Source of the DNA: an uncultured Verrucomicrobiota bacterium
Lineage (GTDB): Bacteria > Verrucomicrobiota > Verrucomicrobiia > Limisphaerales > MWDV01
Direction: 5' to 3'
Assembly: GCA_964548925.1 (NCBI GenBank)
Contig: CAZJTM010000003.1
Span: 16,155-80,154 of the forward strand
Length of the DNA: 64,000 bases
Shown here: in pieces, positions 950-54,126 of the stretch
How the letters are laid out: every line of letters starts with the position of its first letter
How positions within the stretch are numbered: the stretch's first letter is position 1
Notes under the pieces: generated by a model
Databases searched by the model: none
What the model saw: only the letters and a program-made list of their open reading frames with translations
Told to the model about the DNA's origin: nothing
Translations under genes and position numbers: made by a program

Positions 950-958
950 TCCCTTGCC

Positions 959-1228: not shown

Positions 1229-1257
1229 GCCCCGGCCCGCGACCGGCATTGCCTCCC

Positions 1258-2552: not shown

Positions 2553-2575
2553 CCTCAACCCTCATCGGAGTCACC

Positions 2576-2797: not shown

Positions 2798-2830
2798 CCG
2801 TCGCACAACCGCCTCCACTCTCCGACTGCC

Positions 2831-3100: not shown

Positions 3101-3185
3101 GGAAGAGCGCGGAATGAAGAACGCGCGGGGGGTGTCTCTACGCTCCCCTTTCCTCTCTCCCTGCTGCCCGCCTGGTCCGCTTTGA

Positions 3186-3950: not shown

Positions 3951-3966
3951 ACTTGAGTTACCCGCC

Positions 3967-24074: not shown

Positions 24075-24387
24075 AAAGTTTTCGCCCCCGGTGCAGGATG
24101 TCGTGCTGGATGGACGCGCGCAAATCCTTGTAGCGGTCAAATTCCTCCCGCGTTTGCACAAACACGTCCTTGCTCATGTCCAAGTCGCCCAGGCACCGAT
24201 GCGCGCGTTGCATCCGACGGATCGCTCGTTCGTTGCTTTCGGGGACAATCACCATCAAGTCCACATCGCTGTCCTCGTGCGGCGTGCCCCAGGCATGGGA
24301 GCCGAACAGGAATATCTGCTCCGGCTGGAACTCGGCTTTCAGCCGTTCCACGGCCTTCTCCAACAATCCTGCCGGGATTTCTTTCAT
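24067..24387 (-). CDS. Minimal nucleotidyltransferase (MNT) domain protein
   Basis: Pol-beta-type NTase motif LFGSHAWGTPHEDSDVDLMVIV. It starts 13 nt after the nuoC stop. Confidence 0.85.
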   Translation of the reverse strand: MKEIPAGLLEKAVERLKAEFQPEQIFLFGSHAWGTPHEDSDVDLMVIVPESNERAIRRMQRAHRCLGDLDMSKDVFVQTREEFDRYKDLRASIQHDILHRGRKLYG

Positions 24388-29464: not shown

Positions 29465-32400
29465 TCAACCCGGCTCGGCGGCGTTGGCGGCGGCGGCGAC
29501 GCTTTCGATCACGCGGGCGGCGCCGGGCAGGGTTTCGCGCAGCATTCCGACGCGACTGTTGAGCTGCACCACCGTTTCCACCGCCCGATAGGCCACCAAC
29601 CGCCGGTACCAGTCCACGAACGCGCGGCTGACGTTCAACTCCTCGGCGGCGCTTTGCGGGCACAAGCCCGGCTGCGCTTCGAGGGTCGCGCACAGGATGG
29701 CGGCGGCCACGGCGCGCGGCGGGCGCGCGCCGTTGCAGGCACGCTCCCAGAGCGGCTGCGCCTGGCGGGCCTGCTGGCTCAACAGCAGCGCCTCGGCACG
29801 TTGGCCAACGAGCGCCAAATCATCGGGAAAGAGGCGAACCGCCTCGTTCGTCCAATCGCGGGCGAACTCCAAAAAGGCCGGCTGGCTCAACGCAATCTCG
29901 CCGCCCAGCCGCCACGCCAGGGCGTGTTTCGCATTCTGTTGCACGACTTCATGCAGGCGTTGCAGCGCCTCCACCGGTCGTCCTTGCGCGACGAGGAAGC
30001 GGGCGTAATCCACCCGCAGATCTTCCGTCTTGGCGGCGGAGGCCAGCCCGGCTTGGAAGGCCTTCTCCGCGCCTGCGGCGTCGTTCAGTTTCGCCAACGA
30101 CAGTGCCAGGCAATGGTGGGGCGCGGCAGTGAGAATGTCCGTGTTGATCGGCGAGAGCGCGGGCTGTTTCAGCTTGGCGAGGCACTGGCGCATCTGCTCG
30201 GCGGCTTCGCGCGGCTGCTTCAATTCGTAATGCGACAATCCCAAGGCAAAGTGCATGGATGCCGTGAGCCCGCCGCCGCTCCGGGCCAGTGAGGAATTCA
30301 GGACCTGCACCACTTCGTCGTGGGCGCGAATCTTGTAGAGATGCGAGGTGAACTGGGTGAGCAGGACCTCGCGCAACTCGGGCACGACTTCGTTGGGCTT
30401 TTGCGCGGACATGAGCCGGAAGGCGTCGCGGTATTTCGCGATGCCCGACTCCACTTCACCCGAGCGGGCGAGTTCGAGCCCGAGATTCAGCGTGAGGTTG
30501 ATGTCGGTTGGGCGTTCCTCCAAACCGAGCCGGAGCAGGCGCAGGTTGCGCTCGATCTTGTTCCGGTCTCTGACCAGCTCCTTGCTGTAGCCGTGATGCA
30601 ACAGGCAGGCGGTGCCGAGCGCGGTGTCCATGCCGAATGTCTTGCAGAGCGGCAGCAGGCTGGGAAACACCTGCTCGTGAATCCGGCCGTAGTAGTAAGC
30701 GCCGGGGGCGTTGCGGAAGAGCCGCGGGATGAAGCTGCGGCCCTCGGCTTCCTGGCCGCGGTTGACCAGCGGCAGGCGGAAGGCGATGGCGTCGGCCTTG
30801 CGCAGGTCCGCGCGCAAGGCGGCGTGCTGATCGCCGGGCAATTCCTCGTCGGCGTCGAGCATCAGAATCCAATCGCCCGTGGCGTGCTCCAGGATCCGGT
30901 TGCGCGGCGCGCTGAAGTCGTCATTCCAGGTCGTCGTGTAAACCTCCGCGCCGAGCGACTTCGCAATTTCGATCGTGCGATCCGTCGAGCCGGTGTCCAC
31001 GACGATGATCTGGTCGGCCAGCCCCTTGACCGAGTTGAGGCACTGCGTGATGAACTGTTCCTCGTTCCGGGTGAGGACGCCGACGGTCAGCCGACTTCGG
31101 ATTTCGGATTTCGGATTTCGGATTTGCTCCGGCAACGCCAGCCACTCCGGCTTCGCGCCGCCCTTGAGCGGCTTCTTCAGAAATTGCTTCGGTGCGTTCC
31201 AGCGAGGTGCCAGTTCAGCAGCGCGGTGGGCGCAGCTTTTTGCCGAAGCGGCATCGCCGGCGGCCAGGGCGATTTCGGCAAGCAGCAGGCAGGCTTCGGG
31301 ATGGAAGGGGCGGACTTGAAGCGCGGTGCAGGCGGCTTGCCACGCGGCGGCGAACTCGCGGCGGCCAAACGCCCCGCGGGCTTCATCCAGTTGCCCCAAC
31401 TTGGCTGCTCCGGCCCCGGCTCGTGAGAGCGGGGATTCGCCGGTCACCACTCGCGAACTCATGCTCGCGGCTACCGGTTGCCAGAAGCGTTCACTGTTGC
31501 CTTTGTGCGTCAGTGTGAGCGCGGAGAGTGGAATGTTGAGCGAGACGCCGGCGGGCAGTTGCTGCGGGATGGGATAGCCCTTTTCGAGCGCCACGTCGGC
31601 GGGCAGTTGCCACTTGGCGCGGAACAAATCCCAGTTGCGCAGCATGGCGGAGCGATAGTCAATCTTCGCGCCTTTGAAGGTTTGACTGCCAGTGTGGTGA
31701 ATGAAGACATCCTTCGCAATGCGGATGCGGAAGCCGGCGAGCCGCGCGCGAATGCAGAAATCATCGTCCTCGAAATTGCCGCTGCCGAACCGCTCATCCA
31801 ATCCGCCGATGCGCTCGATGACTTCGCGCCGCGCCAGCAGGCAGAAGCCCACCGCGCGCCCGACCTCGAACGATTGGCCGGCGTGAGTCTGCGCCCACTG
31901 CTTGGCGAAGGCCGGCAAGCCCGACAAATCCGTGTAGCCGACTTCGCTCACGAACTGCGGCCCAGAGACGCGATTGGACATCGGGCCGACAACCCCGGTG
32001 TCCGGCTCGCGCCGGAGCACATCCAACATGCCTTCGAGCCAGCCAGCGGTGACGACCGTGTCATTGTTCAACAGCACCACGTTCTGACCGCGGGCGAGGG
32101 CCAAGCCCTGGTTGTTACCGGCGGCAAAGCCCAGATTCGTCTCGTTGTGGATGACGATGCCGTGGGGCGTCTTGGCCAGCCACTCGCGCAGAAACTCCGG
32201 CGTGCCGTCGTTCGAACCGTTGTCCACCACGATGATCTCATGTGGCAGCGGGGTGTGGGCGGCGAGACTCTCCAGACACCTGCGCGTATGCTCAAGCTGA
32301 TTCAGCACGAGAAGGATGACCGAGGCCATCGGCTTACCGGCGGCGGACGCCGGAGCAGCTTCCCCAGCCGGAGTTGAGACCGCCGGGCTTCCCAAGAGAT

Positions 32401-35158
32401 TTTTTGCCCACGCCGCAAAAGACGCGTGCGTCCGCTCCAAGTTCCGCAGATCGCTTGCGGGCAGTGAACTGTCGCCGCCGGTGAGGTCGGCGAATGCAGG
32501 CGTGGCTACGCGCGCCTGCCAGTTCAACTCGCGGAGTTGTGCGGCCAGATGCCAGAGAGCACCGGCAGGTGACAGATCGCCGGAGAGTCCAAGGCCCTCG
32601 ATAAAGGCGGCCCGGCGGAAGGCCACACAGCGGGCGGCCCTGCCCAACGCCTGCGGCAACGATTCAGCGGCATCGTTCGTCGCTCCGCTCGGGAAGAGCA
32701 GCGCGGTTGTTGGATTCCGCAAGCTGGCGAGCACCTGTTCATCCCAACCGCGCCGCGCACGCACCCCGTCGTCCGTGAAGAGCAGCGCGAAGGACGGCGA
32801 GCGGTCGGCCTGACTGTTGAGACACTGAGAAAGCGAATCTGCGGACTGACGTTGGACCGCCCACGCGCGGAAGACATTGTTGGTATGCCGCAGCGTGAGC
32901 GTCTTCAGTTCGTCGGTGATCTTGGCGACGATGGTAACTACTTCGATTCCGCGACCGGGCGCCGCGTTTTCCTTCAGGCGTGTCAGGCACTCTTCAAAGC
33001 GGGCGAGATCATTGCCCGCCTGGACGATCACAGTGATCTCAGGCGGCACGCCTTCGGCCACTTCGCCCACACCGGACAGCAACATCGCGCGACTGTAGGA
33101 AAAGAAATCGTCGGTGGCCTTGGGGCTTTCGAGTTGATGCACCGCCTGGGGCCAAAGCACGCCCTGCGCCGCAAGCAGGCGCGCATAACCTCCCTTGCGC
33201 CATTGCTCGCGGTCGCTGGTGGCGCAGATGGTTTTAACGCCCTCCGCGAAGTAGTAGTCATCCAGGGGAATGGTGGCGAAGTGGCGGAGTTCGGCCTGCA
33301 ACGGGAACGCGCTGGCCCGGCCGAGGATCATCGCTCCGGCACGGTCAATGTCCGTCAGCACGCGCGCGCCAAGCGCCGAGTCGCCTCCCAGTGATGCAGG
33401 CTTCTGCGCCCGCGTCCAGAGCCAGAGCTTCTGGAAGGCAAGCACCCCGTCCTTGAAGGCGCGCTGGCGGCGGAGCAGTTCCGGCGCGAAGCGCATTTCA
33501 TCGAGCACCGGGGCGACGCTGCCGTCGGGCTGGCGTTGGTAGCCGAGGGTGGTGCCGATCGGCGCGGTCAGACATTGCTCGACAAACGCGGGCGAGCGGA
33601 TGAAGGAGGCGAAGTGGAAATCGGGCTTGCCAAACGAGCCGAGGAAATGCCGGACGTCCAGACCGTCCAAGACGCGACTGGCCGCGCGTTCGCAGGTGAC
33701 CAGATAGCAGCCCACCATCGGCACGCGGATTCCTTCCATCTCCAGGATGCGGGCCATCTGCATCTGAGCCGACGCGTTATAGCCAATGTCGCACACGCCA
33801 AACGCCGCGCCGCTCTCGAGCCACGGCCGCAGATAGTCCACCACCTTGCGGCGTTCTTCGGCGCTGCGGGCCTCAATGCGCTGGGCAATCTCCGGGGTGA
33901 ACAAATGCTTCGCCAATTGGTGCAGCCGGTCGGGGCCGTTCACGCGCTCGTCGGCCGAAAACGGCAGGCCGCGCAGGTGTTCTGCCCCGAGGCCGAAATG
34001 CTTGAGAATGGTCTTCACCGGCAGCGTTTCGCGGCGGCCCAGCCAGTCCAGCAGATTTTCCGCGCTGAGCCGGCCAATCGCAGCGAGGTCGGTGGATTTC
34101 CGATTGACGAACAGCGGTTCAATGGTCAGGGGCAAGCCTTGGTGGTTTGCCTCCGCTTGCAGCAGTTGCCCAAACAGGTCGCCTTCGCGCATGAACGCGC
34201 CGACCTTGCGGACGCCGCTGGCGGTGAACTGCTCACACGCCCAGGTGGCAAATCGGGACAGCAACGGCCCCAGCAACAGCGCGCCGGATCGGGCAAAAAA
34301 GGCTTCCGCAGTTTCTCCCGGGAACTGGCGGGCGGCCAGCAACCGCAGCGAGTTGATGCTGAACGCCGGCTCGCTTCCTCCCAGCAGTGCCGCTTCGCGC
34401 GCCAGCACAGTCTGCGCGGTGGGCGCCGCCTGAACGTATTGGCAGGCGCGCACGCCGGCCTTGCGGGCACCCGCAACATCCGCCCCCGGATTGTCGCCGA
34501 GGTGCAGGAGTTCCTCCGGCTTCAGCTGTAAGGTTTTCAGGGCGGCGCGAAAAAGGTTGCCCGTGCCTTTGCAAACCCCGCAATCGCTGGAAGTGAAGAT
34601 GTGCTCAAAGAAACCGGGGTCGCAATGATTGGCCCGGAGGATTTCTCGCAGCGCGTCCGCCGCAAGATAGATGTCCGAAATGATCACGGTGCGCAGGCCG
34701 CGTTCGCGGGCGTGGCGGGCGAACGCCAGCACGCTCGGATTGAGCACACAAAGGTCCGCCTCGGCGGCCACTTCAAACTGGGCAGCCAGTGCGCCGTCCT
34801 TGACGAGCGTGCGCATTTGGGCATAAACGGCTTCCAACCGAACGTCCTCGACCGCCTTGTCCCGGCTGTGTTGGGCTTGGCGGGCCTTGCCCTCGGCCAC
34901 GCGCCGCAAGGTGGCGAAATCCGCCGGCGTGACGTGAGCAGGGATCAATTGTTGTTCCTTCAACCGGCGGCCGATTTCTGGAAAGACATCCGTGGGCCGT
35001 GTCGTCAGCCGCCAGACCAACGTATCAAAGAAGTCAAACGAGACGGCGCGCACCCGACCGGCGCTCAACTCGATCAATTCCGCGGCGCGGCGGAGGGATT
35101 CTTCATTGCGCCAGAGATCAGCGGGAAGTGGCAAGGCAGGGTTCATGGGAGCATTCAC
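29465..35158 (-). CDS. Giant multidomain protein: HAD-like hydrolase + unknown ~480-aa region + three GT-A/GT2-like modules + TPR regions (GTG 35158 or ATG 35146)
   Basis: HAD motifs SFDFFDTLV, IISD and LGDNPGADVAGA (nt ~34420-35050). Divergent GT-A-like module ~32450-33045 (EITVIVQAGND..). Canonical GT2 module 31680-32330 (VVDNGSNDGT, NLGFAAGNNQG, LLNNDT, EDDDFCIRA). Short TPR region ~31200-31400. Second GT2 module ~30600-31090 (VVDTGSTDRT, MLDADEEL). C-terminal TPR-like helical repeats 29465-30560. Confidence 0.8.
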   Translation of the reverse strand: MNAPMNPALPLPADLWRNEESLRRAAELIELSAGRVRAVSFDFFDTLVWRLTTRPTDVFPEIGRRLKEQQLIPAHVTPADFATLRRVAEGKARQAQHSRDKAVEDVRLEAVYAQMRTLVKDGALAAQFEVAAEADLCVLNPSVLAFARHARERGLRTVIISDIYLAADALREILRANHCDPGFFEHIFTSSDCGVCKGTGNLFRAALKTLQLKPEELLHLGDNPGADVAGARKAGVRACQYVQAAPTAQTVLAREAALLGGSEPAFSINSLRLLAARQFPGETAEAFFARSGALLLGPLLSRFATWACEQFTASGVRKVGAFMREGDLFGQLLQAEANHQGLPLTIEPLFVNRKSTDLAAIGRLSAENLLDWLGRRETLPVKTILKHFGLGAEHLRGLPFSADERVNGPDRLHQLAKHLFTPEIAQRIEARSAEERRKVVDYLRPWLESGAAFGVCDIGYNASAQMQMARILEMEGIRVPMVGCYLVTCERAASRVLDGLDVRHFLGSFGKPDFHFASFIRSPAFVEQCLTAPIGTTLGYQRQPDGSVAPVLDEMRFAPELLRRQRAFKDGVLAFQKLWLWTRAQKPASLGGDSALGARVLTDIDRAGAMILGRASAFPLQAELRHFATIPLDDYYFAEGVKTICATSDREQWRKGGYARLLAAQGVLWPQAVHQLESPKATDDFFSYSRAMLLSGVGEVAEGVPPEITVIVQAGNDLARFEECLTRLKENAAPGRGIEVVTIVAKITDELKTLTLRHTNNVFRAWAVQRQSADSLSQCLNSQADRSPSFALLFTDDGVRARRGWDEQVLASLRNPTTALLFPSGATNDAAESLPQALGRAARCVAFRRAAFIEGLGLSGDLSPAGALWHLAAQLRELNWQARVATPAFADLTGGDSSLPASDLRNLERTHASFAAWAKNLLGSPAVSTPAGEAAPASAAGKPMASVILLVLNQLEHTRRCLESLAAHTPLPHEIIVVDNGSNDGTPEFLREWLAKTPHGIVIHNETNLGFAAGNNQGLALARGQNVVLLNNDTVVTAGWLEGMLDVLRREPDTGVVGPMSNRVSGPQFVSEVGYTDLSGLPAFAKQWAQTHAGQSFEVGRAVGFCLLARREVIERIGGLDERFGSGNFEDDDFCIRARLAGFRIRIAKDVFIHHTGSQTFKGAKIDYRSAMLRNWDLFRAKWQLPADVALEKGYPIPQQLPAGVSLNIPLSALTLTHKGNSERFWQPVAASMSSRVVTGESPLSRAGAGAAKLGQLDEARGAFGRREFAAAWQAACTALQVRPFHPEACLLLAEIALAAGDAASAKSCAHRAAELAPRWNAPKQFLKKPLKGGAKPEWLALPEQIRNPKSEIRSRLTVGVLTRNEEQFITQCLNSVKGLADQIIVVDTGSTDRTIEIAKSLGAEVYTTTWNDDFSAPRNRILEHATGDWILMLDADEELPGDQHAALRADLRKADAIAFRLPLVNRGQEAEGRSFIPRLFRNAPGAYYYGRIHEQVFPSLLPLCKTFGMDTALGTACLLHHGYSKELVRDRNKIERNLRLLRLGLEERPTDINLTLNLGLELARSGEVESGIAKYRDAFRLMSAQKPNEVVPELREVLLTQFTSHLYKIRAHDEVVQVLNSSLARSGGGLTASMHFALGLSHYELKQPREAAEQMRQCLAKLKQPALSPINTDILTAAPHHCLALSLAKLNDAAGAEKAFQAGLASAAKTEDLRVDYARFLVAQGRPVEALQRLHEVVQQNAKHALAWRLGGEIALSQPAFLEFARDWTNEAVRLFPDDLALVGQRAEALLLSQQARQAQPLWERACNGARPPRAVAAAILCATLEAQPGLCPQSAAEELNVSRAFVDWYRRLVAYRAVETVVQLNSRVGMLRETLPGAARVIESVAAAANAAEPG
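31098..31125. repeat. (cggattt)x4 heptanucleotide tract inside the giant gene
   Basis: Read directly. It translates on the minus strand as QIRNPKSEIRS in the linker between a TPR region and the last GT2 module. The same heptamer family occurs at 58085-58111. Confidence 0.9.
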
Positions 35159-35167
35159 GGCGGCAGA

Positions 35168-36496
35168 TTAATTCGGGGGGCGAGCGCGCAACTCGTTAAG
35201 CGCGGCTTCGACCGCCGCCAGACGATCGGCAACCGGCGGCAGGTGACGGCCGTCGGCCGCGATGCGCGCAATGAACTGGGCCAAGTCACGCAGGTTGCGC
35301 CGGGCCGGCACGTCTGGTGTGCAGCCAATAAGAAACTGATCCATGATCCAAGTGAGAAAGGCCCGGGCATTGGCCCGCTTCTCCTCCCAGCCCTCCCGCC
35401 GCAGCGCCGCGCGCAAGACGGCGGGAAGTTGTTCCCGGCGATCCACTTCGTAGGCGGCATTGCGCCCCCACCAAGCACTGTGGCCGAGCAGAACGACCGG
35501 CTTGTCATAAAGGGCGGCCTCGAATTGCAGCGTGGTGAATTGCGCCACCACCACATCCGCCAGGTCAATCAAGGCGTGCGGGTTCACATCCCGGACCACC
35601 TGCACGCCCTCGACCTTGGCTACGGCATAGGGATCCTGGTCAATCGGGTGGGGTTTGAACACGACTGCCACGCTCGGATCGTTTTCCACGTGCGCCCAAA
35701 CTCCCATGAGCGCGTCTTGGGTGGAAACGAACTCCGGCGAGTGATAGCGCCGCCCGGGACTATTCCGAGGCTGAAGACCACAACTGTCGAATTGACCCAG
35801 GACGACCACGACCTTTTTCGAGCCCAGTTCGAGCTTTGTACGCAACGCCGCGCCGCCGCCTTCAAAATCTGGGTGCTCGTATTTCTGCGGGCGAGCCTTG
35901 AGGTAATAGTCACGGATTCGCTCGAAGGCGGACAGGTCGCGCGCGGATGCCGGCAGGTCTTGAGCCAGCCAGTGCGTTCGGAGGTCTGACCAGGCGTGCA
36001 AACCGCGACTTTCCATCATGAGCGTGTCCGGCAGCAAGCCGCGCTCAATCCCGGTGAAAGGGATTTCCCGTTCCAAGCATGGCTCGCGAAGCACTGTCGC
36101 CAAAGGTGAAGAGGGATCCCATGCCAACACGCAACCCGGTTGCAGCGTGTTGATCAAATTCCTCGCAACCTGGCGACATGCGATCAAGCCAGCCAACCCC
36201 TCATGGGCCGACCCCGCACCTTGCGTCCGGCTCCGATCATTCTCGATCAAATCGAAGTCCCGCGGAGTGACACAGCCCCCCAGTGTCACCGCCGCTGGAA
36301 ACTGTTGCGCGTAGTCACGGAAGAGATACGGAATGGGGATCAAGTGATACGACCGCGCGACCTCGGGCACGGTGGTGCTCAACAGGACCAACTGGCAGCC
36401 GACCTCATTCAGCCGCGCCCCCATATCCTCCCACATCCGCCTCGTCGGCTCGGTCATGAGGAGATAGTTGGTCGCCAGGCAAATGGTAGTGCTCAT
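35168..36496 (-). CDS. KpsS/KpsC-like (Capsule_synth family) putative glycosyltransferase (ATG 36496 preferred)
   Basis: VVVVLGQFDSCGL...AVVFKPHPIDQ...ALIDLADVVVAQFTTLQFEAALYDKPVVLLGHSAWWG follows the LQ..D / K.HP / V.T.nS..g.EAl..gkPV..G pattern of that family as I recall it. Confidence 0.5.
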   Translation of the reverse strand: MSTTICLATNYLLMTEPTRRMWEDMGARLNEVGCQLVLLSTTVPEVARSYHLIPIPYLFRDYAQQFPAAVTLGGCVTPRDFDLIENDRSRTQGAGSAHEGLAGLIACRQVARNLINTLQPGCVLAWDPSSPLATVLREPCLEREIPFTGIERGLLPDTLMMESRGLHAWSDLRTHWLAQDLPASARDLSAFERIRDYYLKARPQKYEHPDFEGGGAALRTKLELGSKKVVVVLGQFDSCGLQPRNSPGRRYHSPEFVSTQDALMGVWAHVENDPSVAVVFKPHPIDQDPYAVAKVEGVQVVRDVNPHALIDLADVVVAQFTTLQFEAALYDKPVVLLGHSAWWGRNAAYEVDRREQLPAVLRAALRREGWEEKRANARAFLTWIMDQFLIGCTPDVPARRNLRDLAQFIARIAADGRHLPPVADRLAAVEAALNELRARPPN

Positions 36497-36634
36497 GAGC
36501 GGCAGGGCTTTGTCAGCTTGCGCCGCTGGCCCGCGTTTAATGTGGAGGCATGCCAAAACCACCTGAAGGCGGTTTGGTGGATGGGCCGCTGTCGCTCTGG
36601 GGCAAGTTCCGTCATGGGCCGTGGGAGGGACGCG

Positions 36635-38011
36635 TCAGAAGAGCCCGAACTTCTTGACGAGTTCGTCGGTGCGGATGCCTTGAGCAATGGCCAGCAGGAT
36701 GCCGCCTTCGTTGCCGCGACGGCGCAACGCTTCCTCCAGAATCGCCGTCTCCTGCTTCTTGGGGATGACGACGATGCCGTCGCAATCGGCGAAGATCAGG
36801 TCGTCTTTGTGGACGCTGATGCCGTCAATGACAATGGTCTTGTTCCGCGAGGTGACGACGCCGCGCTTGCGGGTGTCCTTGCAGTGATGGCCCTTGGCGA
36901 AGACCGGGAAGCCCATACGCCGCGTGTCCGGCCAGTCGCGCGTGACGCCGTCAATGATCGCTCCCACCGCGCCGGCGCGAATGGCGAGGTTGGCATTCAA
37001 CTCGCCGAAGAACGCGAAGCCGGGGGCGTGGTTGGCAACGACAATAACATCGTTGCTTACGACGTGATCGTAAAGATGGAGGCTGTCGTAAATTTTGCGG
37101 AAATCCTCGTCGTCGGAGCAGAGATCAATCTGCAGGGTCTTGGCGCGCCCAAGGATCTTCTGGTCGGGGAGGTTCAGTTGGAACTCCCGGGAAAGGACGC
37201 CGCTCACGCCCAGATCGTCCATCACGTCGGAGAGCAGCGGGCTGTTGAGCTGGAGCTTGAGGTTGGCGAAGAGGCGGCGCTCCTGTTCGCGCAGGCCGAT
37301 GGCGATGAGATTGGCCATCTCGAAATCCACGGGCCAGTTCACGTCCACGCTTTCGAGCGGGTCAATCTCCAGCAGGAACGGCCGGTCGCCGATGCGGCGT
37401 TTGGTGGCGAGCGCGGCGTCGCGCCGGACGGCATAGAGGCCCATGGACTCGATGATGTTGTCTTCGAGGTCCACGCTGTTGGGGATGTGGTTGAGGTCGT
37501 AACGCGGTCGGCCGTTCTCCCAGCGGTATTGCTTCTCCTTGCGGACGGCAACCACCGAATCATAGCGGTCGTCCGTCTTGAGAATCTCGATGGCCTTCTC
37601 GATCGTCTCGGTTCTGATGAAAGGCGACGTGCCGAGCAACTGCACGCAGATGTCAGCGTCGCAGTTGACGACCTCGTTGAGGAACAATTGGTGGCCGTCG
37701 GTCTTGTTCGAGGCGAGCGTGGGGTCGCGGCGCAGGATGCGGCATTTGACCTCAGAGGCGAGGCTGATGATCTCGTGCGACTCGGTGTCGAGCCAGACCT
37801 CATCCACGGAGGGGCAGGCGGCGAGTTTCTTCAGGCTGCGCAGGAAGAGCGGCTCGCCGTCCAGCAACATCGTATTCTTGTTGGGCACGCGCTGGCTGGA
37901 GCCCTTGGCCGGGAGGAAGGCGGCAACCGTCATGGTCTTGGGCTGCGCCTGCCGCTCCGTTGTGAATTCAGGGGCTTCGCCCACTGAGGTGGCAGCGACG
38001 GCAGCGCTCAT
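36635..38011 (-). CDS. Fusion protein: N-terminal CMP-sugar (NeuA/KdsB-type) cytidylyltransferase + C-terminal RraA/HMG-aldolase-like domain
   Basis: N-terminal part: AAFLPAKGSSQRVPNKN, VWLDTESHEI, VQLLGTSPF. C-terminal part: GRAKT, NDVIVVA..AFFGELNANLAIRAGAVGAIIDGVTRD, GFPVFAKG, DDLIFADCDGIVVIP. Confidence 0.75.
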   Translation of the reverse strand: MSAAVAATSVGEAPEFTTERQAQPKTMTVAAFLPAKGSSQRVPNKNTMLLDGEPLFLRSLKKLAACPSVDEVWLDTESHEIISLASEVKCRILRRDPTLASNKTDGHQLFLNEVVNCDADICVQLLGTSPFIRTETIEKAIEILKTDDRYDSVVAVRKEKQYRWENGRPRYDLNHIPNSVDLEDNIIESMGLYAVRRDAALATKRRIGDRPFLLEIDPLESVDVNWPVDFEMANLIAIGLREQERRLFANLKLQLNSPLLSDVMDDLGVSGVLSREFQLNLPDQKILGRAKTLQIDLCSDDEDFRKIYDSLHLYDHVVSNDVIVVANHAPGFAFFGELNANLAIRAGAVGAIIDGVTRDWPDTRRMGFPVFAKGHHCKDTRKRGVVTSRNKTIVIDGISVHKDDLIFADCDGIVVIPKKQETAILEEALRRRGNEGGILLAIAQGIRTDELVKKFGLF

Positions 38012-38029: not shown

Positions 38030-38689
38030 TTAGGCGGCACGAATCGCCATGAGGTTCTCGCGGGCGATGTCGTTGGTCGGGTCCAGCTTGAGCACGCGCT
38101 CGAAGCAGGCTTGGGCGGCGTGCCGGTCGTTGGTTCTGGCGCAACAAACGCCCAGACGCATCAGCAATTCGAGGTCGTCCGGCCGGTCTTCCAAGGCGCC
38201 TTCGACGTATTCGCGGGCCTCGTCGTAGCGCTCGCGGGTGAAGAGGAAACCGCTGAACAGGCTCTGGGCCAGAGGATTCTCGGGGCTCAAGGTGATCGCG
38301 TGCCGGAAGATGTTCTCGGCTTCGCGGTCCTGTCCGAGTTGCTGGTGGGTCAGGGCCAGTTGCAGGAAGATTTCGCCATCAGTGGGGTCCAGCTCGCCGG
38401 CTTTCACGAAGGCCAGTCCGGCCCGCTCGTATTCGCCCAGTTGGTAGTGCAGGCTGCCAAGGGCGACCCAGATGTGGGCGTCGTGCGGGTCCACGTCGGC
38501 GGCTTGTTTGAGGAAATCGCGGGCGGCGCCAAGTTCGCCGCGCGCGTACCATTCGTCAGCGCGGCGGAGACACCAGTCGCGGATGCTGGCGATTTCCCGG
38601 GCGGCCTGGGGGTTGGAGGTGGCCGCGGGACTGAAGTCGAGGTTAAAGAGTTGGTGCTTGTGGTTGGAAACGGAAGCGGTGGTTTTCAT
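38030..38689 (-). CDS. TPR repeat protein
   Basis: 219 aa with several TPR-like helix pairs (AHIWVALGSLHYQLGEYERAGLAFVKAGELDP etc.). It lies immediately downstream of flagellin. Confidence 0.8.
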   Translation of the reverse strand: MKTTASVSNHKHQLFNLDFSPAATSNPQAAREIASIRDWCLRRADEWYARGELGAARDFLKQAADVDPHDAHIWVALGSLHYQLGEYERAGLAFVKAGELDPTDGEIFLQLALTHQQLGQDREAENIFRHAITLSPENPLAQSLFSGFLFTRERYDEAREYVEGALEDRPDDLELLMRLGVCCARTNDRHAAQACFERVLKLDPTNDIARENLMAIRAA

Positions 38690-38882: not shown

Positions 38883-39686
38883 TTATTGCAGCAGCCGGAG
38901 CACGGACTGCGGCATGGAATTGGCCTGCGCCAGCATCGCGGTGCCGGACTGGACGAGGATGTTCTGCTTCGCGTATTGGGTGCTTTCCTCGGCCACGTCC
39001 ACATCTTGGATGCGGGAGCTGGCGGCGGTGAGGTTCTCTTTGCTCACCATCAGTTGTTGGACCGTCGAGTTCATGCGGGCCTGGTAGGCGCCGATGGTCG
39101 CGCGGTCCTCCGAAAGTTTGGTAATCGCGGCCTTGATCTTGGTCAGCGTGTCCTGCGCTTCGGTGTTCGTCGCCACGCTGCCATTGAAGGCCTCGGTGTA
39201 AACGGCCGCGCCGAGGCTGATGCCCTGCATGGCGAAATTGTTGCCGTCCGAGTCAATGACCACGTTGAGGCTGTCGCCGGTGAACAGGCTGACCCCGTTG
39301 AAGTCCTTGGTGGCGGCGCTGGTGATGTAGGCGCTCAACTGGCCGAATTCACTTTGGTAGAGCTGGCGGTCGTTGTCGGACTTGGTAACGTCCTGCGCGA
39401 GGATCGAGAGTTCGCTCATCCGGTCCAGCGCCTTGGCGATGGTCTTGAGATAGCCATCCTGGGTCTGGGTGTAGGAGATGGCGTTGCCCACGTTGTCGCG
39501 CGCGGCGTCGAGCCGGCGGATTTGGGCGTCCAGGCGGGAAGCGACGGCCAGCCCGGCGGCGTCGTCTCCCGGTTGGATGATCTTGCTGCCGGAGCTGAGG
39601 CGCGAGAGTGAGCGGCTCAACATGGCTTGGTTGGTCTGCAGGTTGTGCGAGGAAACCTGCGCGGCGATGTTCGTGTTGATGATCAT
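38883..39686 (-). CDS. fliC: Flagellin (short, D0/D1-only type)
   Basis: MIINTNIAAQVSSHNLQTNQAMLSRSLSRLSSGSKI..DDAAGLAV at the N terminus. TAMLAQANSMPQSVLRLLQ at the C terminus. 267 aa. Confidence 0.95.
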   Translation of the reverse strand: MIINTNIAAQVSSHNLQTNQAMLSRSLSRLSSGSKIIQPGDDAAGLAVASRLDAQIRRLDAARDNVGNAISYTQTQDGYLKTIAKALDRMSELSILAQDVTKSDNDRQLYQSEFGQLSAYITSAATKDFNGVSLFTGDSLNVVIDSDGNNFAMQGISLGAAVYTEAFNGSVATNTEAQDTLTKIKAAITKLSEDRATIGAYQARMNSTVQQLMVSKENLTAASSRIQDVDVAEESTQYAKQNILVQSGTAMLAQANSMPQSVLRLLQ

Positions 39687-39707: not shown

Positions 39708-39989
39708 TTACTGGACTGGAGAGATGGGGGTGGCCGGCGCCTTTTGGGGCTTCATTTTGGCGGTGGTTGGCAGGCGGAGCGGCAGTTTGGGCAGCGGCCC
39801 GCGCGGGCGGGTCAGCGCGGCCTGGTTGTTGCGCTGGATTTCCTCATAGACCTCGCGCCGATGCACGGGAACGTCTGCCGGCGCGTCAATGCCCACCTTC
39901 ACCACTTCGCCCTCCACGCGAACGATCTTCACGTGGATGCGCCCATCAATCACGATGCTTTCGCCGGTTTTGCGGGAGAGAATAAGCAT
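39708..39989 (-). CDS. csrA: Carbon storage regulator CsrA with extended Pro/Lys-rich C-terminal tail
   Basis: MLILSRKTGESIVIDGRIHVKIVRVEGEVVKVGIDAPADVPVHRREVYEEI. 93 aa in total. Confidence 0.93.
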   Translation of the reverse strand: MLILSRKTGESIVIDGRIHVKIVRVEGEVVKVGIDAPADVPVHRREVYEEIQRNNQAALTRPRGPLPKLPLRLPTTAKMKPQKAPATPISPVQ

Positions 39990-40006: not shown

Positions 40007-40444
40007 TTATTCAGCGTCGGCCAGCGGCAACGGATGTTGCACCGAGTAGGCGGACGCATTGGCGATGACCACCTGCTTGCCGACCCCGGAGTGGCGGTTC
40101 ACAACGATGGGCCCCTTCAGATTGACCGTGGCGCGGTTGGGGCCGTGCAAGGTCACGATATTGAGCAACTGCGCGTCCTCGGGGGCGGTGATGCCGAGGA
40201 ATTCCACATCGGGCGGCGGGAGGTTGGGCTGATAATCCGGCACGACCAGGAACGGATCCACCACGATAAAGGCCAGGGCGGGATTATTTCTGACCTCCAG
40301 CCAGCGGAAGGGTTCCTCGCCGGGGTTGGTGATGAGCACGTAGTCTTTGATCTGCTCAAACCCCAGAAGCCCCATCGGCAGCCTCAATCCGTGGCTGGTG
40401 GCCTTTTCAGGCGTGTCCGTTACTGTCGGGCTATCGCATTTCAT
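40007..40444 (-). CDS. fliW: Flagellar assembly factor FliW
   Basis: LPMGLLGFEQIKDYVLI..PFRWLEV..PALAFIVVDPFLVVPDY is FliW-like. It sits directly upstream of csrA, the same order as fliW-csrA-hag in B. subtilis. Confidence 0.88.
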   Translation of the reverse strand: MKCDSPTVTDTPEKATSHGLRLPMGLLGFEQIKDYVLITNPGEEPFRWLEVRNNPALAFIVVDPFLVVPDYQPNLPPPDVEFLGITAPEDAQLLNIVTLHGPNRATVNLKGPIVVNRHSGVGKQVVIANASAYSVQHPLPLADAE

Positions 40445-42988: not shown

Positions 42989-43308
42989 ATCGGCACGCTG
43001 CTGAGTTGATCGCAGCCGGCCGGCCGGGGTTGCAGCAGAACTCCGCCTCAGCAAATCGTCCACGTTCCATCGGCTCGACCACGAGCAGTTGCTCCACATG
43101 ATTGATAGCCGCGCCACGCAGCGCCATTGAGCCAGGTTGGCCGGAGGCGGATTGGATTGTAACAATTGGCGGCTTGCGCGGACCGTAACGCGCCCATTAT
43201 ACACCTCCGGAGCGCGTGCGTCGCGGTTGGCCGCGGCGTGGGGGCGCTTGCGCCCTGCCGTCCGGTTGGAAAGCGGAGCAAACTGCCGGGCGGACGGGCG
43301 ATGAACTT

Positions 43309-44451
43309 GTGACCCAAGCCAGACACAATCACTTGAATCCGCCAACACATTTTGAGGCCTCCCTCCAGCGGGCGATGGATGCCATCCGCGCGAAGGTCAC
43401 GCAAATGGCCGGGTTGGATGAGCGCGCCTTGAAGGCCAGCTTGCAGGCGTTCGTGGAGCGCAATCGGCAGTTGGCCTACTCGGTCATTCTGCGCGACCAG
43501 TATCTGGACGAGTTGGAAACGGAACTGGACCGGCTTTGCCTGGAATTCCTCGTGCGGCAGCAACCCGCCGCCGGCCCGCTGCGATTCGTTTTCACCACCA
43601 TCAAGATTAACAAGGAACTGGAGCGGATCGGGGATTACGCCGAGAGCGTCGCCCGCCAGGCGCTGAAGCTCAGTCCACTGGCGACGCCCCTGCCGCAGGA
43701 GAAGTTCGTCGAACTGGGCAACCTCGCCGTCCACATGCTGCGCGACGCGGTCCAGGCGTTTCTGGATCAGGACGCGGAGCTGGCGCGCCGGACGATGCTG
43801 ATCGAGGAGCGCGGGAATACCTTGCGCAACCAACTGAACGCGGAACTCTCCGCCCTGCACGATGCCGGGAAGCTGCCGACGGAGGCGTTGACCCCGCTGC
43901 TGACCATCGCCCGGCGTTTCGAGCGCGTCACGGATCAGACGAAGAACATCTGCGAGGAAGTGCTTTACCTTTGCACGGGCGAGTTCACCCATCATCCCGG
44001 CGCGGAGGCGTTCCGGATTTTGTTCGTGGATGCCGACAACTGCTGGCTCAGTCAGATGGCGGAGGGCATTGGCAATTCGCTGGGCGTGCCCGGGTTTGTT
44101 TTCAGCAGCGCGGGCATTGCGCCCCGGCCGGTGGACGCGCGGGTGGTGGAGTTCATGTCCCGGAAGGGCATTGATCTCTCGCGCCACACGAGCAAGACCC
44201 GTGAGCAAGTGCCGAACTGGGATCACTACCAAGTCGTGATCGCGCTGTGCGAGGAAGCGCAAAAAGTTTTCCCCGCAGCGCCCACGAAGACGATTTGCCT
44301 CACGTGGTCCCCGCCCGTCCCGGCCAGTACCGAGGGCAGTCTGGAGACGGTGCAAGCTGCTTTCACTTCCGCGTTCAACTTTCTTCAGGATCAAATCCAG
44401 GTTTTGGTGGAGGCGATCCGCGGAGAACCTCAACAACAAACGACCTCATGA
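43309..44451 (+). CDS. PhoU-domain protein fused to a degenerate LMW phosphatase/ArsC-like domain (GTG 43309 suggested; track start 43216)
   Basis: Two PhoU repeats (KELERIGDYAESVARQ and RRFERVTDQTKNICEEV). The C-terminal domain aligns by eye to LMW-PTP, but the P-loop reads V-D-A-D-N-C-W-L-S (44026-44052) instead of V-C-x-G-N-x-C-R-S. Confidence 0.75.
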   Translation: MTQARHNHLNPPTHFEASLQRAMDAIRAKVTQMAGLDERALKASLQAFVERNRQLAYSVILRDQYLDELETELDRLCLEFLVRQQPAAGPLRFVFTTIKINKELERIGDYAESVARQALKLSPLATPLPQEKFVELGNLAVHMLRDAVQAFLDQDAELARRTMLIEERGNTLRNQLNAELSALHDAGKLPTEALTPLLTIARRFERVTDQTKNICEEVLYLCTGEFTHHPGAEAFRILFVDADNCWLSQMAEGIGNSLGVPGFVFSSAGIAPRPVDARVVEFMSRKGIDLSRHTSKTREQVPNWDHYQVVIALCEEAQKVFPAAPTKTICLTWSPPVPASTEGSLETVQAAFTSAFNFLQDQIQVLVEAIRGEPQQQTTS

Positions 44452-45377: not shown

Positions 45378-45453
45378 CCGGCCCGGGGCTGCGCGCGATA
45401 CGAGTTCCGCCGGCAACCTGCGGCGGAGCCGCAAGTTCGGCGGCCCGCCTTGA

Positions 45454-47426: not shown

Positions 47427-47436
47427 CCCGGCGGTT

Positions 47437-53984: not shown

Positions 53985-54126
53985 TCCGACGGAATCCACG
54001 TTCACTCTTCCCAAGAACCGCATGCTCCCAAGGATTCAAAGCGTTCAAGGATGGCGGCAAGCGGATTCCTGAACGCTCTGGGTTTCTGGTGGAACTCGAA
54101 AGGGCGGCGCGGCGCGGGTCAGGGGC

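What the first reader, a model, noticed from the sequence alone, without database searches (positions are those of the whole stretch)
36635..38011. Fusion of a CMP-sugar cytidylyltransferase with an RraA/HMG-aldolase-fold domain
Residues ~27-250 look like NeuA/KdsB-type cytidylyltransferases (PAKGSSQRVPNKN, LGTSPF). Residues ~265-458 carry RraA-family hallmarks (GELNANLAIRAGAVGAIIDGVTRD, GFPVFAKG, ADCDGIVVIP). RraA-fold proteins include divalent-metal pyruvate aldolases/oxaloacetate decarboxylases and RNase E regulators. Physically coupling such a domain to a CMP-activating enzyme suggests pyruvate-dependent, rather than PEP-dependent, synthesis of a 3-deoxy-2-ulosonic acid followed by immediate activation. 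That would explain the absence of a NeuB/KdsA-type synthase in the locus. I do not know of a characterised example.
Basis: inference. Interest (0 to 1): 0.7.

Follow-up and report, generated by a model that had tools for sequence, protein, structure and literature searches.

The report
Cytidylyltransferase–RraA fusion in flagellin glycosylation island
The gene really does fuse a CMP-sugar-activating enzyme to an intact aldolase-type (RraA-like) domain and sits in a flagellin-glycosylation locus, but its relatives elsewhere lie next to the ordinary Kdo-building genes, so the aldolase-type domain is probably an extra, still uncharacterised step and not a replacement for the normal sugar synthase.

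Summary
ORF 36635-38011(-) encodes a NeuA-type cytidylyltransferase fused to an RraA/HMG-aldolase-fold domain. This architecture occurs in more than 100 protein clusters, so it is not an artefact. The metal and enolate residues of the HMG/CHA aldolase are invariant across the family.

The gene lies in a flagellin glycosylation island: FliW, CsrA, flagellin, a TPR protein, the fusion, a KpsC-like (beta-Kdo-transferase-like) glycosyltransferase, and a 1897-aa protein. That protein carries a PRPP-dependent ribofuranosyltransferase/phosphatase module, two GT2 domains and TPR repeats.

Relatives contradict this:
- The giant virus CroV has a full-length homologue (crov266) between a Kdo-8-P synthase gene and a Kdo-8-P phosphatase/arabinose-5-P isomerase gene.
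- Two bacterial loci and one metagenome contig also have kdsA beside or near the fusion.
- One giant-virus-like protein fuses a DAHP synthase to the same unit.

The fusion therefore occupies the KdsB position of a Kdo-type pathway. In this bacterium the housekeeping Kdo genes would supply the sugar. The RraA-like domain most likely performs additional aldol or enolate chemistry on open-chain Kdo just before activation. That reaction is unknown, and no member of the family has been characterised.

The parts
36635..38011 (-). Fusion gene: cytidylyltransferase + RraA-like domain. 458-aa ORF; the probable start is Met27 at 37933, giving 432 aa.
37277..37933 (-). N-terminal NeuA-type CMP-ulosonic-acid synthetase domain (ORF residues about 27-245). 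It has the P-loop PAKGSSQRVPNKN and an invariant Arg206 (R180 in 432-aa numbering) at the Kdn gate-keeper position. An invariant IPNSVDL replaces the sialic-acid motif RPRRQDW.
36638..37246 (-). C-terminal RraA-like / class-II pyruvate-aldolase-fold domain (ORF residues about 256-458). G336-E337, R358-D359 and E435 (G310, E311, R332, D333, E409 in 432-aa numbering) match the HMG/CHA aldolase catalytic and metal residues.
35168..36496 (-). GT-B glycosyltransferase related to KpsC/KpsS (Capsule_synth, retaining beta-Kdo transferases). It has KPHP and FEA..KPV motifs. It is the probable user of the CMP-sugar.
29465..35158 (-). 1897-aa multidomain glycosyltransferase: HAD phosphoribosyl-phosphatase, PRPP-dependent ribofuranosyltransferase, two GT2 domains and C-terminal TPR repeats.
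34418..35065 (-). HAD phosphatase domain of the ribofuranosyltransferase module. It is not an ulosonate-phosphate phosphatase.
33188..34294 (-). Glycan-acceptor phosphoribosyltransferase domain. The profile matches 7SHG (E 6.6e-36) and Bcs3 (E 1.7e-16).
38030..38689 (-). 219-aa TPR protein between the flagellin gene and the fusion. It is a candidate flagellin-binding specificity factor.
   Evidence: homologues are in the same position in L005 and L025
38883..39686 (-). Short flagellin (267 aa), the presumed glycosylation target.
39708..39989 (-). CsrA (93 aa).
   Evidence: CsrA is in the same position in L001
40007..40444 (-). FliW.

Best explanation
Shown: the gene encodes a genuine bifunctional protein in a flagellin glycosylation island.

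Inferred with good support:
- The N-terminal NeuA-type cytidylyltransferase makes the CMP-activated form of a non-aminated 3-deoxy-2-ulosonic acid of the Kdo type.
- The adjacent KpsC-like glycosyltransferase uses that donor.
- The 1897-aa enzyme adds ribofuranose from PRPP plus other sugars, and its TPR repeats target flagellin.

Inferred with moderate support: the carbon skeleton comes from the ordinary PEP-dependent route (KdsD, KdsA, KdsC; housekeeping in this bacterium). The fusion stands where KdsB/KpsU normally stands.

Inferred, least certain: the RraA-like domain is a catalytically active Mg2+-dependent 2-oxo-acid enzyme. It binds open-chain Kdo and performs reversible C3-C4 aldol or enolate chemistry on it. 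The most likely reaction is retro-aldol cleavage followed by re-addition, which would epimerise C4 or exchange the aldose part. The product is then trapped immediately by the fused cytidylyltransferase, which pulls the equilibrium. This would explain why a specialised NeuA-like enzyme is used instead of a KdsB-type one.
For: Locus context:
- The window has FliW-CsrA-flagellin-TPR-fusion-GT-giant GT.
- The same order occurs in Fontisphaera, ending in a second flagellin and FliD.
- Flagellar genes flank the fusion in Ignavibacteria, Melioribacter and other MAGs.

Partner transferase:
- The KpsC-like domain lies right beside the fusion in 18 loci, counting the window.
- Pfam Capsule_synth is recorded for 14 of 55 homologues, for the Calditrichia 1886-aa protein and for the L026 polymerase.
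- The family profile hits KpsC 6MGD across the KPHP motif.
- The model is GT-B, with KpsC and WbbB among the top fold matches.

Ribose module: profile against 7SHG gives E 6.6e-36. Kdo-plus-ribose enzyme pairs are known from E. coli K13 KrkA.

N-terminal domain: the best structural match is CMP-Kdn synthetase 9T4Z (TMt 0.85). The invariant Arg aligns with its Kdn gate-keeper Arg196.

Co-location with the Kdo pathway:
- CroV has KdoPS, the fusion, and KdoPase/API in a row.
- L026 has kpsF directly upstream of the fusion, with kdsA and kdsC homologues about 6-8 kb downstream. L027 has kdsA directly upstream of the fusion. L016 has kpsF directly upstream.
- In L034 an RraA-like gene is followed by kdsA.

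Same enzyme throughout:
- The N-domain substrate residues and the C-domain catalytic residues are identical in the window protein, in phage homologues and in CroV.
- The domains also occur as two overlapping genes in L035/L036, so they are separable partners.

Precedent: the RraA-family enzyme FlDet acts on a 2-keto-3-deoxy sugar acid.
Against: - No enzyme of this family has been assayed, and no glycan from any of these organisms has been determined.
- An epimerase activity has no precedent in the RraA family. The AraD analogy comes from general knowledge, not from a test here.
- Most bacterial loci contain no Kdo genes, so use of housekeeping Kdo is assumed and was not shown for this genome.
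- The cytidylyltransferase metal motif reads D-x-N where NeuA enzymes have an acidic pair.
- The residues corresponding to Thr145 and Lys147 of the aldolase vary between clades while the cytidylyltransferase pocket does not. The model does not explain this.
- P0278 links the unit to a DAHP synthase instead of a Kdo synthase, so the sugar may not always be an octulosonate.
Confidence: 0.4

Rival explanations
1. The RraA-like domain is a pyruvate-dependent class-II aldolase that builds the 3-deoxy-2-ulosonic acid de novo, or as a salvage route from a free aldose such as D-arabinose or D-mannose. The fused cytidylyltransferase then traps the product, making KdsA/NeuB unnecessary.
For: - The full aldolase catalytic set is conserved.
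- Most of the roughly 30 bacterial loci contain no synthase gene. In a Pfam census of 119 neighbouring ORFs, NeuB and DAHP_synth_1 are not among the 25 commonest families.
- An invariant Asp sits at the position of Gly144 in the phosphate site of the aldolase, which suggests a neutral, unphosphorylated substrate.
- Fusion to an irreversible activating step would pull an unfavourable aldol equilibrium (inference).
Against: - CroV, a virus under pressure to keep few genes, carries a Kdo-8-P synthase, a phosphatase and an isomerase around the same fusion.
- kdsA lies beside the fusion in L027, near it in L026, and after the RraA-like gene in L034.
- A DAHP synthase is fused to the unit in P0278.
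- Free aldoses are scarce in the cytoplasm (general knowledge).
Confidence: 0.2
2. The RraA-like domain performs some other reaction on open-chain Kdo or Kdo-8-P. Candidates are FlDet-like C4 dehydration, metal-assisted ring opening and closing (an anomerase supplying the reactive beta-anomer), or dephosphorylation.
For: - The RraA-family enzyme FlDet is a 2-keto-3-deoxy-hexarate dehydratase/decarboxylase.
- The domain always accompanies a cytidylyltransferase that needs a particular ring form (general knowledge).
- In the single protein P0278 (Rpe, DAHP synthase, cytidylyltransferase, RraA) a phosphatase is the only missing step.
Against: - CroV and L026 already encode a KdsC-type phosphatase.
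- The Asp at the phosphate site argues against binding phosphate.
- Dehydration would need a further reductase, and none is seen.
- There is no precedent for an anomerase in this fold.
Confidence: 0.15
3. The RraA-like domain is not an enzyme here. It acts as an oligomerisation or docking module (RraA proteins are trimers). It would hold the cytidylyltransferase against the transferase so that the labile CMP-sugar is passed on directly, or it would sense pyruvate or oxaloacetate.
For: - RraA proper works by binding another protein (general knowledge).
- The K13 Kdo transferase KrkA is a trimer.
- CMP-Kdo is unstable (general knowledge).
- Mammalian CMP-sialic-acid synthetase carries a KdsC-like C-terminal domain, 3EWI. 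That this domain is catalytically inactive is general knowledge.
Against: - The metal-binding and enolate-stabilising residues are invariant at 34-38% overall identity from bacteria to the giant-virus homologues CroV and L044; P0278, at about 27% identity, keeps the C-domain catalytic residues only. This is unusual for a purely structural domain.
- The domain scores much closer to the aldolases than to RraA proper: 72.7 bits against 35.2 bits.
Confidence: 0.12
4. The C-terminal domain regulates RNase E, as E. coli RraA does. The fusion would then link RNA decay to sugar activation.
For: Family name only. The JGI annotation reads 'regulator of RNase E activity RraA'.
Against: - The RraA equivalog model scores 35 bits against a cut-off of 136.
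- The family occurs in phages and giant viruses and always in glycan loci.
- The aldolase residues are retained.
Confidence: 0.02

Closest known systems
CroV crov266 (Cafeteria roenbergensis virus), a predicted Kdo-activating protein
   Same: It is a full-length homologue: 38% identity over residues 1-432. It has the same two domains, the same invariant residues in both, and an O-methyltransferase next door, as in several bacterial loci.
   Different: It is viral, and it sits beside its own Kdo-8-P synthase, phosphatase and isomerase genes, with no flagellin. It has never been assayed. Its C-terminal domain was annotated as a demethylmenaquinone methyltransferase, the old misnomer for RraA.
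KdsB / KpsU CMP-Kdo synthetase
   Same: It occupies the same pathway position, next to kpsF, kdsA and kdsC in L026, L027 and CroV. It has the same CTP_transf_3 superfamily fold and P-loop.
   Different: Structurally the domain is nearer the NeuA class (TMt 0.78-0.85) than KdsB (about 0.6-0.65). The KdsB models score far below their cut-offs. KdsB and KpsU have no second domain.
CMP-Kdn / CMP-Neu5Ac synthetases (PpNeuA 9T4Z, mouse 1QWJ, V. cholerae 6IFD)
   Same: These are the best sequence and fold matches. Arg is conserved at the Kdn gate-keeper position and Tyr at the pocket position.
   Different: The RPRRQDW motif is replaced by an invariant IPNSVDL. The metal motif is D-x-N. Identity is only about 24%.
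[quoted passage not shown]
   Same: It has the same fold, and the equivalents of Gly101, Asp102, Arg123, Asp124 and Glu199 are conserved.
   Different: The match is far below the equivalog cut-offs (72.7 against 179 bits). Gly144 of the phosphate-activation site is an invariant Asp here. The context is glycan biosynthesis, not aromatic catabolism.
E. coli K13 KrkA and group 2 capsule machinery (KpsC/KpsS)
   Same: It combines a retaining Kdo-type transferase with a PRPP-dependent ribosyltransferase and HAD phosphatase. The L026 polymerase has these modules in one protein.
   Different: Here the Kdo-type transferase resembles GT107 (KpsC), not GT140. In the window it is a separate protein, and the presumed acceptor is flagellin, not a lipid-linked capsule.
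Maf and FlmG flagellin glycosyltransferase systems
   Same: The island lies beside flagellin genes, a CMP-ulosonic acid is the donor, and TPR modules are there for flagellin recognition.
   Different: The window has no Maf or FlmG homologue and no NeuB-type pathway. The transferase is KpsC-like. One relative (L038) does have a faint Maf-type (MptE-like) neighbour.
FlDet, an RraA-family 2-keto-3-deoxy-hexarate dehydratase/decarboxylase
   Same: It is an RraA-fold enzyme that acts on a 2-keto-3-deoxy sugar acid.
   Different: It is catabolic and stand-alone. Its sequence could not be compared here.

Membership tests
CMP-ulosonic acid synthetase (CTP_transf_3: NeuA/KdsB/PseF) | Pfam PF02348 match above the gathering score | tested here: met
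   66 bits against 22.6
CMP-ulosonic acid synthetase (CTP_transf_3: NeuA/KdsB/PseF) | N-terminal CTP-binding loop with conserved Arg and Lys | tested here: met
   PAKGSSQRVPNKN. P8, S13, R15, K19 and N20 are invariant in all 22 bacterial orthologues, and G11 in 21 of 22 (Ala in L019). The phage and CroV homologues keep them apart from G11->Ser in CroV and L044, but the giant-virus-like P0278 differs at P8, G11 and R15.
CMP-ulosonic acid synthetase (CTP_transf_3: NeuA/KdsB/PseF) | Fold of solved CMP-sugar synthetases | tested here: met
   9T4Z: TMt 0.85, rmsd 2.0. 6IFD, 1QWJ and 1EYR: 0.78-0.81.
CMP-ulosonic acid synthetase (CTP_transf_3: NeuA/KdsB/PseF) | Acidic pair that binds catalytic Mg2+ | tested here: inconclusive
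   An invariant D-x-N aligns with E-x-D of PpNeuA.
CMP-ulosonic acid synthetase (CTP_transf_3: NeuA/KdsB/PseF) | Score above the curated cut-off of a specific equivalog (PseF, KdsB) | tested here: not met
   PseF 48.1 against 205.7; KdsB models 32-44 against 193-281. The substrate class is therefore not assigned.
CMP-ulosonic acid synthetase (CTP_transf_3: NeuA/KdsB/PseF) | CTP + ulosonic acid gives CMP-sugar in vitro | not testable with these tools
   Enzyme assay needed.
RraA-like / HMG-CHA class-II pyruvate aldolase | Pfam PF03737 match and fold | tested here: met
   93 bits against 24.5. Fold matches to 3NOJ, 3K4I, 5X15 and 2C5Q.
RraA-like / HMG-CHA class-II pyruvate aldolase | Enolate-stabilising Arg123, metal ligands Asp124 and Glu199, pyruvate-pocket Gly101 | tested here: met
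   R332, D333, E409 and G310 (432-aa numbering) are invariant in all homologues, including CroV.
RraA-like / HMG-CHA class-II pyruvate aldolase | Score above the LigK/ProA equivalog cut-off | tested here: not met
   72.7 against 179; 69.2 against 304.5.
RraA-like / HMG-CHA class-II pyruvate aldolase | Phosphate-activation site (Gly144, Thr145, Lys147, Arg195) | tested here: not met
   Gly144 is an invariant Asp. The Thr, Lys and Arg positions vary by clade.
RraA-like / HMG-CHA class-II pyruvate aldolase | Aldol cleavage or oxaloacetate decarboxylation activity | not testable with these tools
   Enzyme assay needed.
RraA, inhibitor of RNase E | Score above the RraA equivalog cut-off | tested here: not met
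   35.2 against 136.
Kdo biosynthesis pathway, KdsB position | Co-location with KdsD/KpsF, KdsA and KdsC genes | tested here: inconclusive
   Met in relatives, by adjacency or proximity: CroV; L026 (kpsF adjacent, kdsA and kdsC about 6-8 kb downstream); L027; L016; L034. Not met in the window, where these genes are absent from the 64 kb.
Flagellin glycosylation island | Sugar-activating and glycosyltransferase genes contiguous with flagellin and flagellar genes | tested here: met
   Window. Recurs in L001, L002, L004, L005, L009, L025, L029 and L032.
Flagellin glycosylation island | Flagellin actually carries the glycan | not testable with these tools
   Mass spectrometry of flagellin needed.
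KpsC/KpsS-type retaining beta-Kdo transferase (Capsule_synth, GT107), for the neighbour at 35168-36496 | PF05159 match and HP motif in a GT-B fold | tested here: inconclusive
   The window protein gives no Pfam hit at 1e-3. However, 14 of 55 homologues carry PF05159. The family profile hits KpsC at E 1.2e-3 across KPHP. The GT-B model ranks KpsC and WbbB near the top, but generic GT-B folds score similarly.
Polysaccharide ribofuranosyltransferase (phosphoribosyl transferase + HAD phosphatase), for residues 36-660 of the 1897-aa protein | Homology to solved ribofuranosyltransferases with an adjoining HAD domain | tested here: met
   Profile against 7SHG gives E 6.6e-36 and against Bcs3 1.7e-16. 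HAD Pfam and NCBIfam hits. Module description.

The most novel reading that the evidence does not exclude
The RraA-like domain catalyses a previously unrecognised fifth step of Kdo-type sugar biosynthesis. This could be C4 epimerisation by retro-aldol cleavage and re-addition, or a pyruvate-dependent exchange or salvage reaction. The product would be a new CMP-octulosonic acid. The step would be conserved from Verrucomicrobia, Ignavibacteria and Proteobacteria to jumbo phages and giant viruses. In this bacterium the sugar would be attached to flagellin, together with ribofuranose, by a KpsC-like transferase. That would be a third kind of flagellin glycosylation system alongside Maf and FlmG.
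Probability: 0.35. Interest if true: 0.75.

Novelty: new variant of a known kind. Interest (0 to 1): 0.58.

Why it matters
Kdo biosynthesis is regarded as a closed four-enzyme pathway and is an antibiotic target. This is a large and widespread protein family:
- At least 1,000 hits in the first search.
- About 40 fusion-type representatives among the 150 best hits at the 50%-identity clustering level.
- Members in five or more bacterial phyla, phage-like contigs and giant viruses.

The family consistently pairs the activating enzyme with an intact aldolase-type active site whose reaction nobody has measured. Working it out would do three things. It would either reveal a new ulosonic acid or a new way of feeding the pathway. 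It would correct a persistent misannotation ('RNase E regulator', 'demethylmenaquinone methyltransferase'). It would explain the unvalidated 'Kdo cluster' of CroV.

Separately, the island predicts flagellin decorated with a Kdo-type sugar and ribofuranose, using capsule-type enzymes. As far as my literature searches show, this has not been described.

Tried and rejected
1. HAD domain as phosphatase. I first read the conserved HAD domain of the 1897-aa neighbour as the phosphatase for an ulosonate phosphate, which would have favoured an aldolase acting on a sugar phosphate. I rejected this. The HAD domain and the 370 aa after it form the PRPP-dependent ribofuranosyltransferase/phosphatase module.

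2. Heptulosonate idea. I considered that the sugar is 3-deoxy-arabino-heptulosonate, a 'shortened Kdn' drawn from the shikimate pathway, prompted by the DAHP synthase in P0278. I dropped it because the ring configurations are mirror images. In addition, the residues of the activating domain are identical in CroV, which has a Kdo pathway.

3. Pfam census of 119 neighbouring ORFs. It suggested there was no synthase anywhere. This was misleading, because kdsA next to the fusion in L027 counts as a single member and so falls outside the 25 families listed. A later tblastn with the CroV proteins found kdsA there and, outside the 5-kb census range, in L026.

4. Searches that led nowhere:
- A plasmid search found only single-domain relatives.
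- The afdb50 fold library was unavailable.
- The BFVD viral fold search added nothing.
- P0236 turned out to be a tandem RraA protein, not a fusion.
- The look-up of the window's own neighbour protein (P0121) did not identify the organism.
- The original CroV genome paper could not be read.

5. Stand-alone RraA protein P0180. Its contig starts 17 nt upstream, so it may be a truncated fusion.
Full report
**Observation**

The ORF at 36635..38011 on the minus strand is intact and encodes 458 aa. Pfam finds CTP_transf_3 at residues 31-156 and RraA-like at 260-415, both well above their gathering scores. NCBIfam extends the first domain to residue 235 (PseF model) and the second to about residue 453.

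A database search returned 1,022 significant relatives. The 120 best nearly all have both Pfam domains in one protein. Most are 432 aa and 57-91% identical. They come from Verrucomicrobia (including cultured Fontisphaera persica), Calditrichota, Ignavibacteria/Melioribacter and other MAGs. The fusion is therefore real. The true start is probably Met27 (window 37933). The upstream sequence gives no clear ribosome-binding site for either start.

An AlphaFold model built on 52 sequences is confident (pLDDT 90.4, pTM 0.81). Residue numbers below use the 432-aa form; add 26 for ORF numbering.

**The two domains**

The N-terminal half is closest to CMP-Kdn synthetase from Prymnesium (9T4Z: E 6e-15 by sequence, TMt 0.85, rmsd 2.0 Å). 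Other NeuA/PseF-type enzymes follow. KdsB structures fit clearly worse, at TMt about 0.6-0.65.
- The CTP loop is present.
- In the HMMER alignment the invariant R180 falls on Arg196 of PpNeuA. The authors showed that this residue is the gate-keeper for the 5-hydroxy sugar Kdn as opposed to N-acetylated Neu5Ac. This fits a non-aminated ulosonic acid.
- The sialic-acid motif RPRRQDW is replaced by an invariant IPNSVDL.
- The metal motif reads D-x-N.

The C-terminal half aligns with P. putida HMG/CHA aldolase (3NOJ). The correspondences are:
- G310-E311 with Gly101-Asp102
- R332-D333 with Arg123-Asp124
- T354 and K356 with Thr145 and Lys147
- R405 with Arg195
- E409 with Glu199

The published roles of these residues are enolate stabilisation (Arg123), metal binding (Asp124, Glu199) and lining the pyruvate pocket (Gly101). 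G310, E/D311, R332, D333 and E409 are invariant in 22 bacterial orthologues down to 42% identity, and in phage, CroV and other viral homologues. The residue at the Gly144 position of the aldolase's phosphate site is an invariant Asp.

**Surroundings in the window**

On the same strand lie:
- FliW (40007-40444)
- CsrA (39708-39989)
- a 267-aa flagellin (38883-39686)
- a 219-aa TPR protein (38030-38689)
- the fusion
- a 442-464-aa protein with no Pfam hit (35168-36562)
- a 1897-aa protein with HAD, two GT2 domains and TPR repeats (29465-35158)

This is a flagellin glycosylation island. TPR modules are what give Maf-1 and FlmG their flagellin specificity. The same gene order occurs in Fontisphaera, ending in a second flagellin and FliD.

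**The neighbouring proteins**

An HMM built iteratively on the fetched loci finds the 442-aa protein's domain directly beside the fusion in 18 loci, counting the window. In Ignavibacteria it forms the N-terminal part of proteins annotated only as methyltransferases. Several lines tie it to KpsC:
- Capsule_synth (PF05159, the KpsC/KpsS family) is precomputed for 14 of its 55 homologues. It is a solid hit in the Calditrichia and Rhodocyclaceae multidomain proteins.
- The family profile hits KpsC (6MGD, E 1.2e-3), aligning KPHP and FEA..KPV.
- The AlphaFold model (pLDDT 89) is a GT-B fold. KpsC and WbbB beta-Kdo transferases are among the best matches, although generic GT-B enzymes score similarly.

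I take it to be the transferase that uses the CMP-sugar.

The HAD domain and the following 370 aa of the large protein recur together in 10 loci, counting the window. The 370-aa profile matches a solved ribofuranosyltransferase (7SHG, E 6.6e-36) and Bcs3. This is the two-part polysaccharide ribosyltransferase: phosphoribosyl transfer from PRPP, then removal of the 5-phosphate by the HAD domain. The HAD domain therefore says nothing about a phosphorylated ulosonate. A Kdo transferase paired with this ribose module is exactly what E. coli K13 KrkA contains.

**The decisive comparison**

A search of 1.84 billion representatives with the RraA-like domain alone returned about 40 further fusion-type representatives at 29-48% identity. 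It also returned stand-alone and otherwise fused forms. One of these, P0278 (1149 aa), reads ribulose-phosphate 3-epimerase + class-II DAHP synthase + cytidylyltransferase + RraA-like. It lies on a GC-rich, ORFan-rich contig with a nucleotide-sugar transporter, which looks like a giant virus.

A review of giant-virus glycans describes the predicted Kdo cluster of Cafeteria roenbergensis virus (CroV):
- crov265: Kdo-8-P phosphatase + arabinose-5-P isomerase
- crov266: a cytidylyltransferase of the CMP-NeuAc-synthetase type, with a C-terminal domain 'annotated as a demethylmenaquinone methyltransferase'
- crov267: Kdo-8-P synthase + a 3-O-methyltransferase

None of these has been validated. 'Demethylmenaquinone methyltransferase' is the old misannotation of the RraA family (my own knowledge; PDB entries 1NXJ and 2PCN still carry that name).

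A scan of viral contigs found a 617,453-bp contig with a full-length homologue at 38% identity over residues 1-432. I confirmed its neighbours against solved structures:
- Upstream: Kdo-8-P synthase (E 5e-66) fused to a CalS11-like methyltransferase.
- Downstream, on the other strand: a KdsC-type phosphatase (E 1e-23) fused to a SIS isomerase.

Using those CroV proteins as queries against the bacterial loci gave further links:
- A kdsA homologue lies directly upstream of the fusion in Roseococcus (L027).
- A Rhodocyclaceae capsule-type locus (L026) has kpsF directly upstream of the fusion and, about 6-8 kb downstream of it, kdsA and kdsC homologues.
- A Photobacterium MAG has kpsF directly upstream.
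- A close RraA-like homologue (46% identity) is followed by the start of kdsA in L034.

All substrate-facing residues of the activating domain, and the catalytic residues of the RraA-like domain, are identical in the window protein and CroV. The same chemistry is therefore expected in both.

**Interpretation**

A virus that carries its own Kdo-8-P synthase, phosphatase and isomerase alongside this fusion does not need a second, pyruvate-dependent synthase. The fusion stands where KdsB/KpsU stands.

In the window's bacterium, the missing synthase is most simply explained by the housekeeping Kdo pathway. Its closest relatives are Verrucomicrobia, which are Gram-negative. E. coli kps clusters likewise carry kpsF and kpsU but not kdsA (general knowledge).

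The RraA-like domain keeps a complete metal and enolate site, so I think it is an enzyme. It needs an open-chain 2-oxo acid, so it must act before cytidylyl transfer. The simplest chemistry for an aldolase scaffold on Kdo is reversible C3-C4 cleavage and re-addition, which would epimerise C4 or swap the aldose moiety. The fused, effectively irreversible activating step would then pull the product forward. This last step is inference, by analogy with L-ribulose-5-phosphate 4-epimerase (my own knowledge). It is supported only indirectly:
- A NeuA-like enzyme is used in place of a KdsB-like one.
- The RraA-family enzyme FlDet works on a 2-keto-3-deoxy sugar acid.

The de novo aldolase, another reaction (dehydration, anomerisation) and a non-catalytic scaffold remain live rivals.

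**Other variation**

The two domains occur as separate genes overlapping by 8 nt in two independent metagenome contigs. Tailoring enzymes next to the fusion differ by lineage:
- TylF/CalS11-like O-methyltransferases in alphaproteobacteria, CroV and a JGI contig.
- Methyltransferase domains fused to the KpsC-like domain in Ignavibacteria.
- Sulfotransferases in Calditrichia (weak match), a phage-like contig and a giant-virus contig.
- A GT29 sialyltransferase-like ORF in a low-GC phage-like contig.
- A faint Maf-type neighbour in L038.

**Novelty**

Literature searches combining RraA with cytidylyltransferase, Kdo or nonulosonic-acid terms, and the old methyltransferase name with flagellin, found no characterised member. 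The only description of the architecture was the CroV mention. I rate this as a new variant of a known kind: a Kdo-type activation module with an extra, conserved, unassigned catalytic domain, here serving flagellin glycosylation by capsule-type transferases.

Noticed in passing
window 29465-35158 (-): The 1897-aa protein combines a PRPP-dependent ribofuranosyltransferase/HAD phosphatase module with two GT2 domains and C-terminal TPR repeats, next to a flagellin gene. This predicts ribofuranose on flagellin. My literature searches, which targeted Kdo and RraA and not ribose specifically, turned up no such report.
   Followed up: partly
L033 10001-13450 (protein P0278): A single 1149-aa protein fuses ribulose-phosphate 3-epimerase, class-II DAHP synthase, cytidylyltransferase and an RraA-like domain. 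Its contig is GC-rich (65%), intron-free and ORFan-rich, carries a nucleotide-sugar transporter, and looks like a giant virus. It may be a one-protein pathway to a CMP-heptulosonate-type sugar. It is a singleton in the database.
   Followed up: partly
L040/L041 9400-11293; L042 9989-12546: Phage-like viral contigs (117-160 kb at 34% GC; 31 kb at 61% GC) encode the same fusion. In L040/L041 a GT29 sialyltransferase-like ORF lies directly upstream. In L042 a sulfotransferase lies two ORFs downstream. Phages may therefore make this CMP-sugar.
   Followed up: partly
L035 413-1616 and L036 439-1642: The cytidylyltransferase and RraA-like domains are separate genes overlapping by 8 nt in two independent metagenome contigs. 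The cytidylyltransferase reading frame has no obvious ATG/GTG/TTG start before its P-loop.
   Followed up: partly
L026 7256-19576: A Rhodocyclaceae MAG locus resembles a group 2 capsule cluster. It has a polysaccharide export protein, KpsF and the fusion in place of KpsU. It also has a 1190-aa protein combining Capsule_synth, HAD and ribofuranosyltransferase, a second ribofuranosyltransferase copy, KdsA and KdsC. It probably makes a polymer of ribose and a Kdo-type sugar.
   Followed up: partly
window 23661-24161 (-) and 24067-24387 (-): A HEPN-domain ORF and a small neighbouring ORF sit immediately next to the NADH dehydrogenase 49-kDa subunit gene (22355-23629). They may be a HEPN/nucleotidyltransferase toxin-antitoxin pair inserted by the nuo genes.
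   Followed up: no
window 43216-44451 (+): This ORF combines two PhoU domains with a low-molecular-weight phosphotyrosine phosphatase domain. It lies upstream of phosphate ABC transporter genes (44247-48971).
   Followed up: no
window 35-5052 (+): Flagellar export and switch genes (FliM, FliP, FliR-type, FlhB) lie at the start of the window, about 30 kb from the flagellin island. A nuo operon and other genes lie between them.
   Followed up: no
window 51054-54023 (-): A 989-aa protein has DUF7133, HEAT repeats and a cytochrome c domain. My recollection is that this combination is common in Verrucomicrobia and Planctomycetes; this was not checked here.
   Followed up: no
representatives P0226, P0250, P0236, P0295, P0305: Other architectures of the same RraA-like subfamily exist: tandem RraA-RraA proteins (about 450 aa; P0236 sits beside a solute-binding protein and an MFS transporter), RidA (L-PSP) + RraA, and a protein with a partial AP_endonuc_2 (xylose-isomerase-like TIM barrel) match, a GNAT domain and RraA.
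   Followed up: partly
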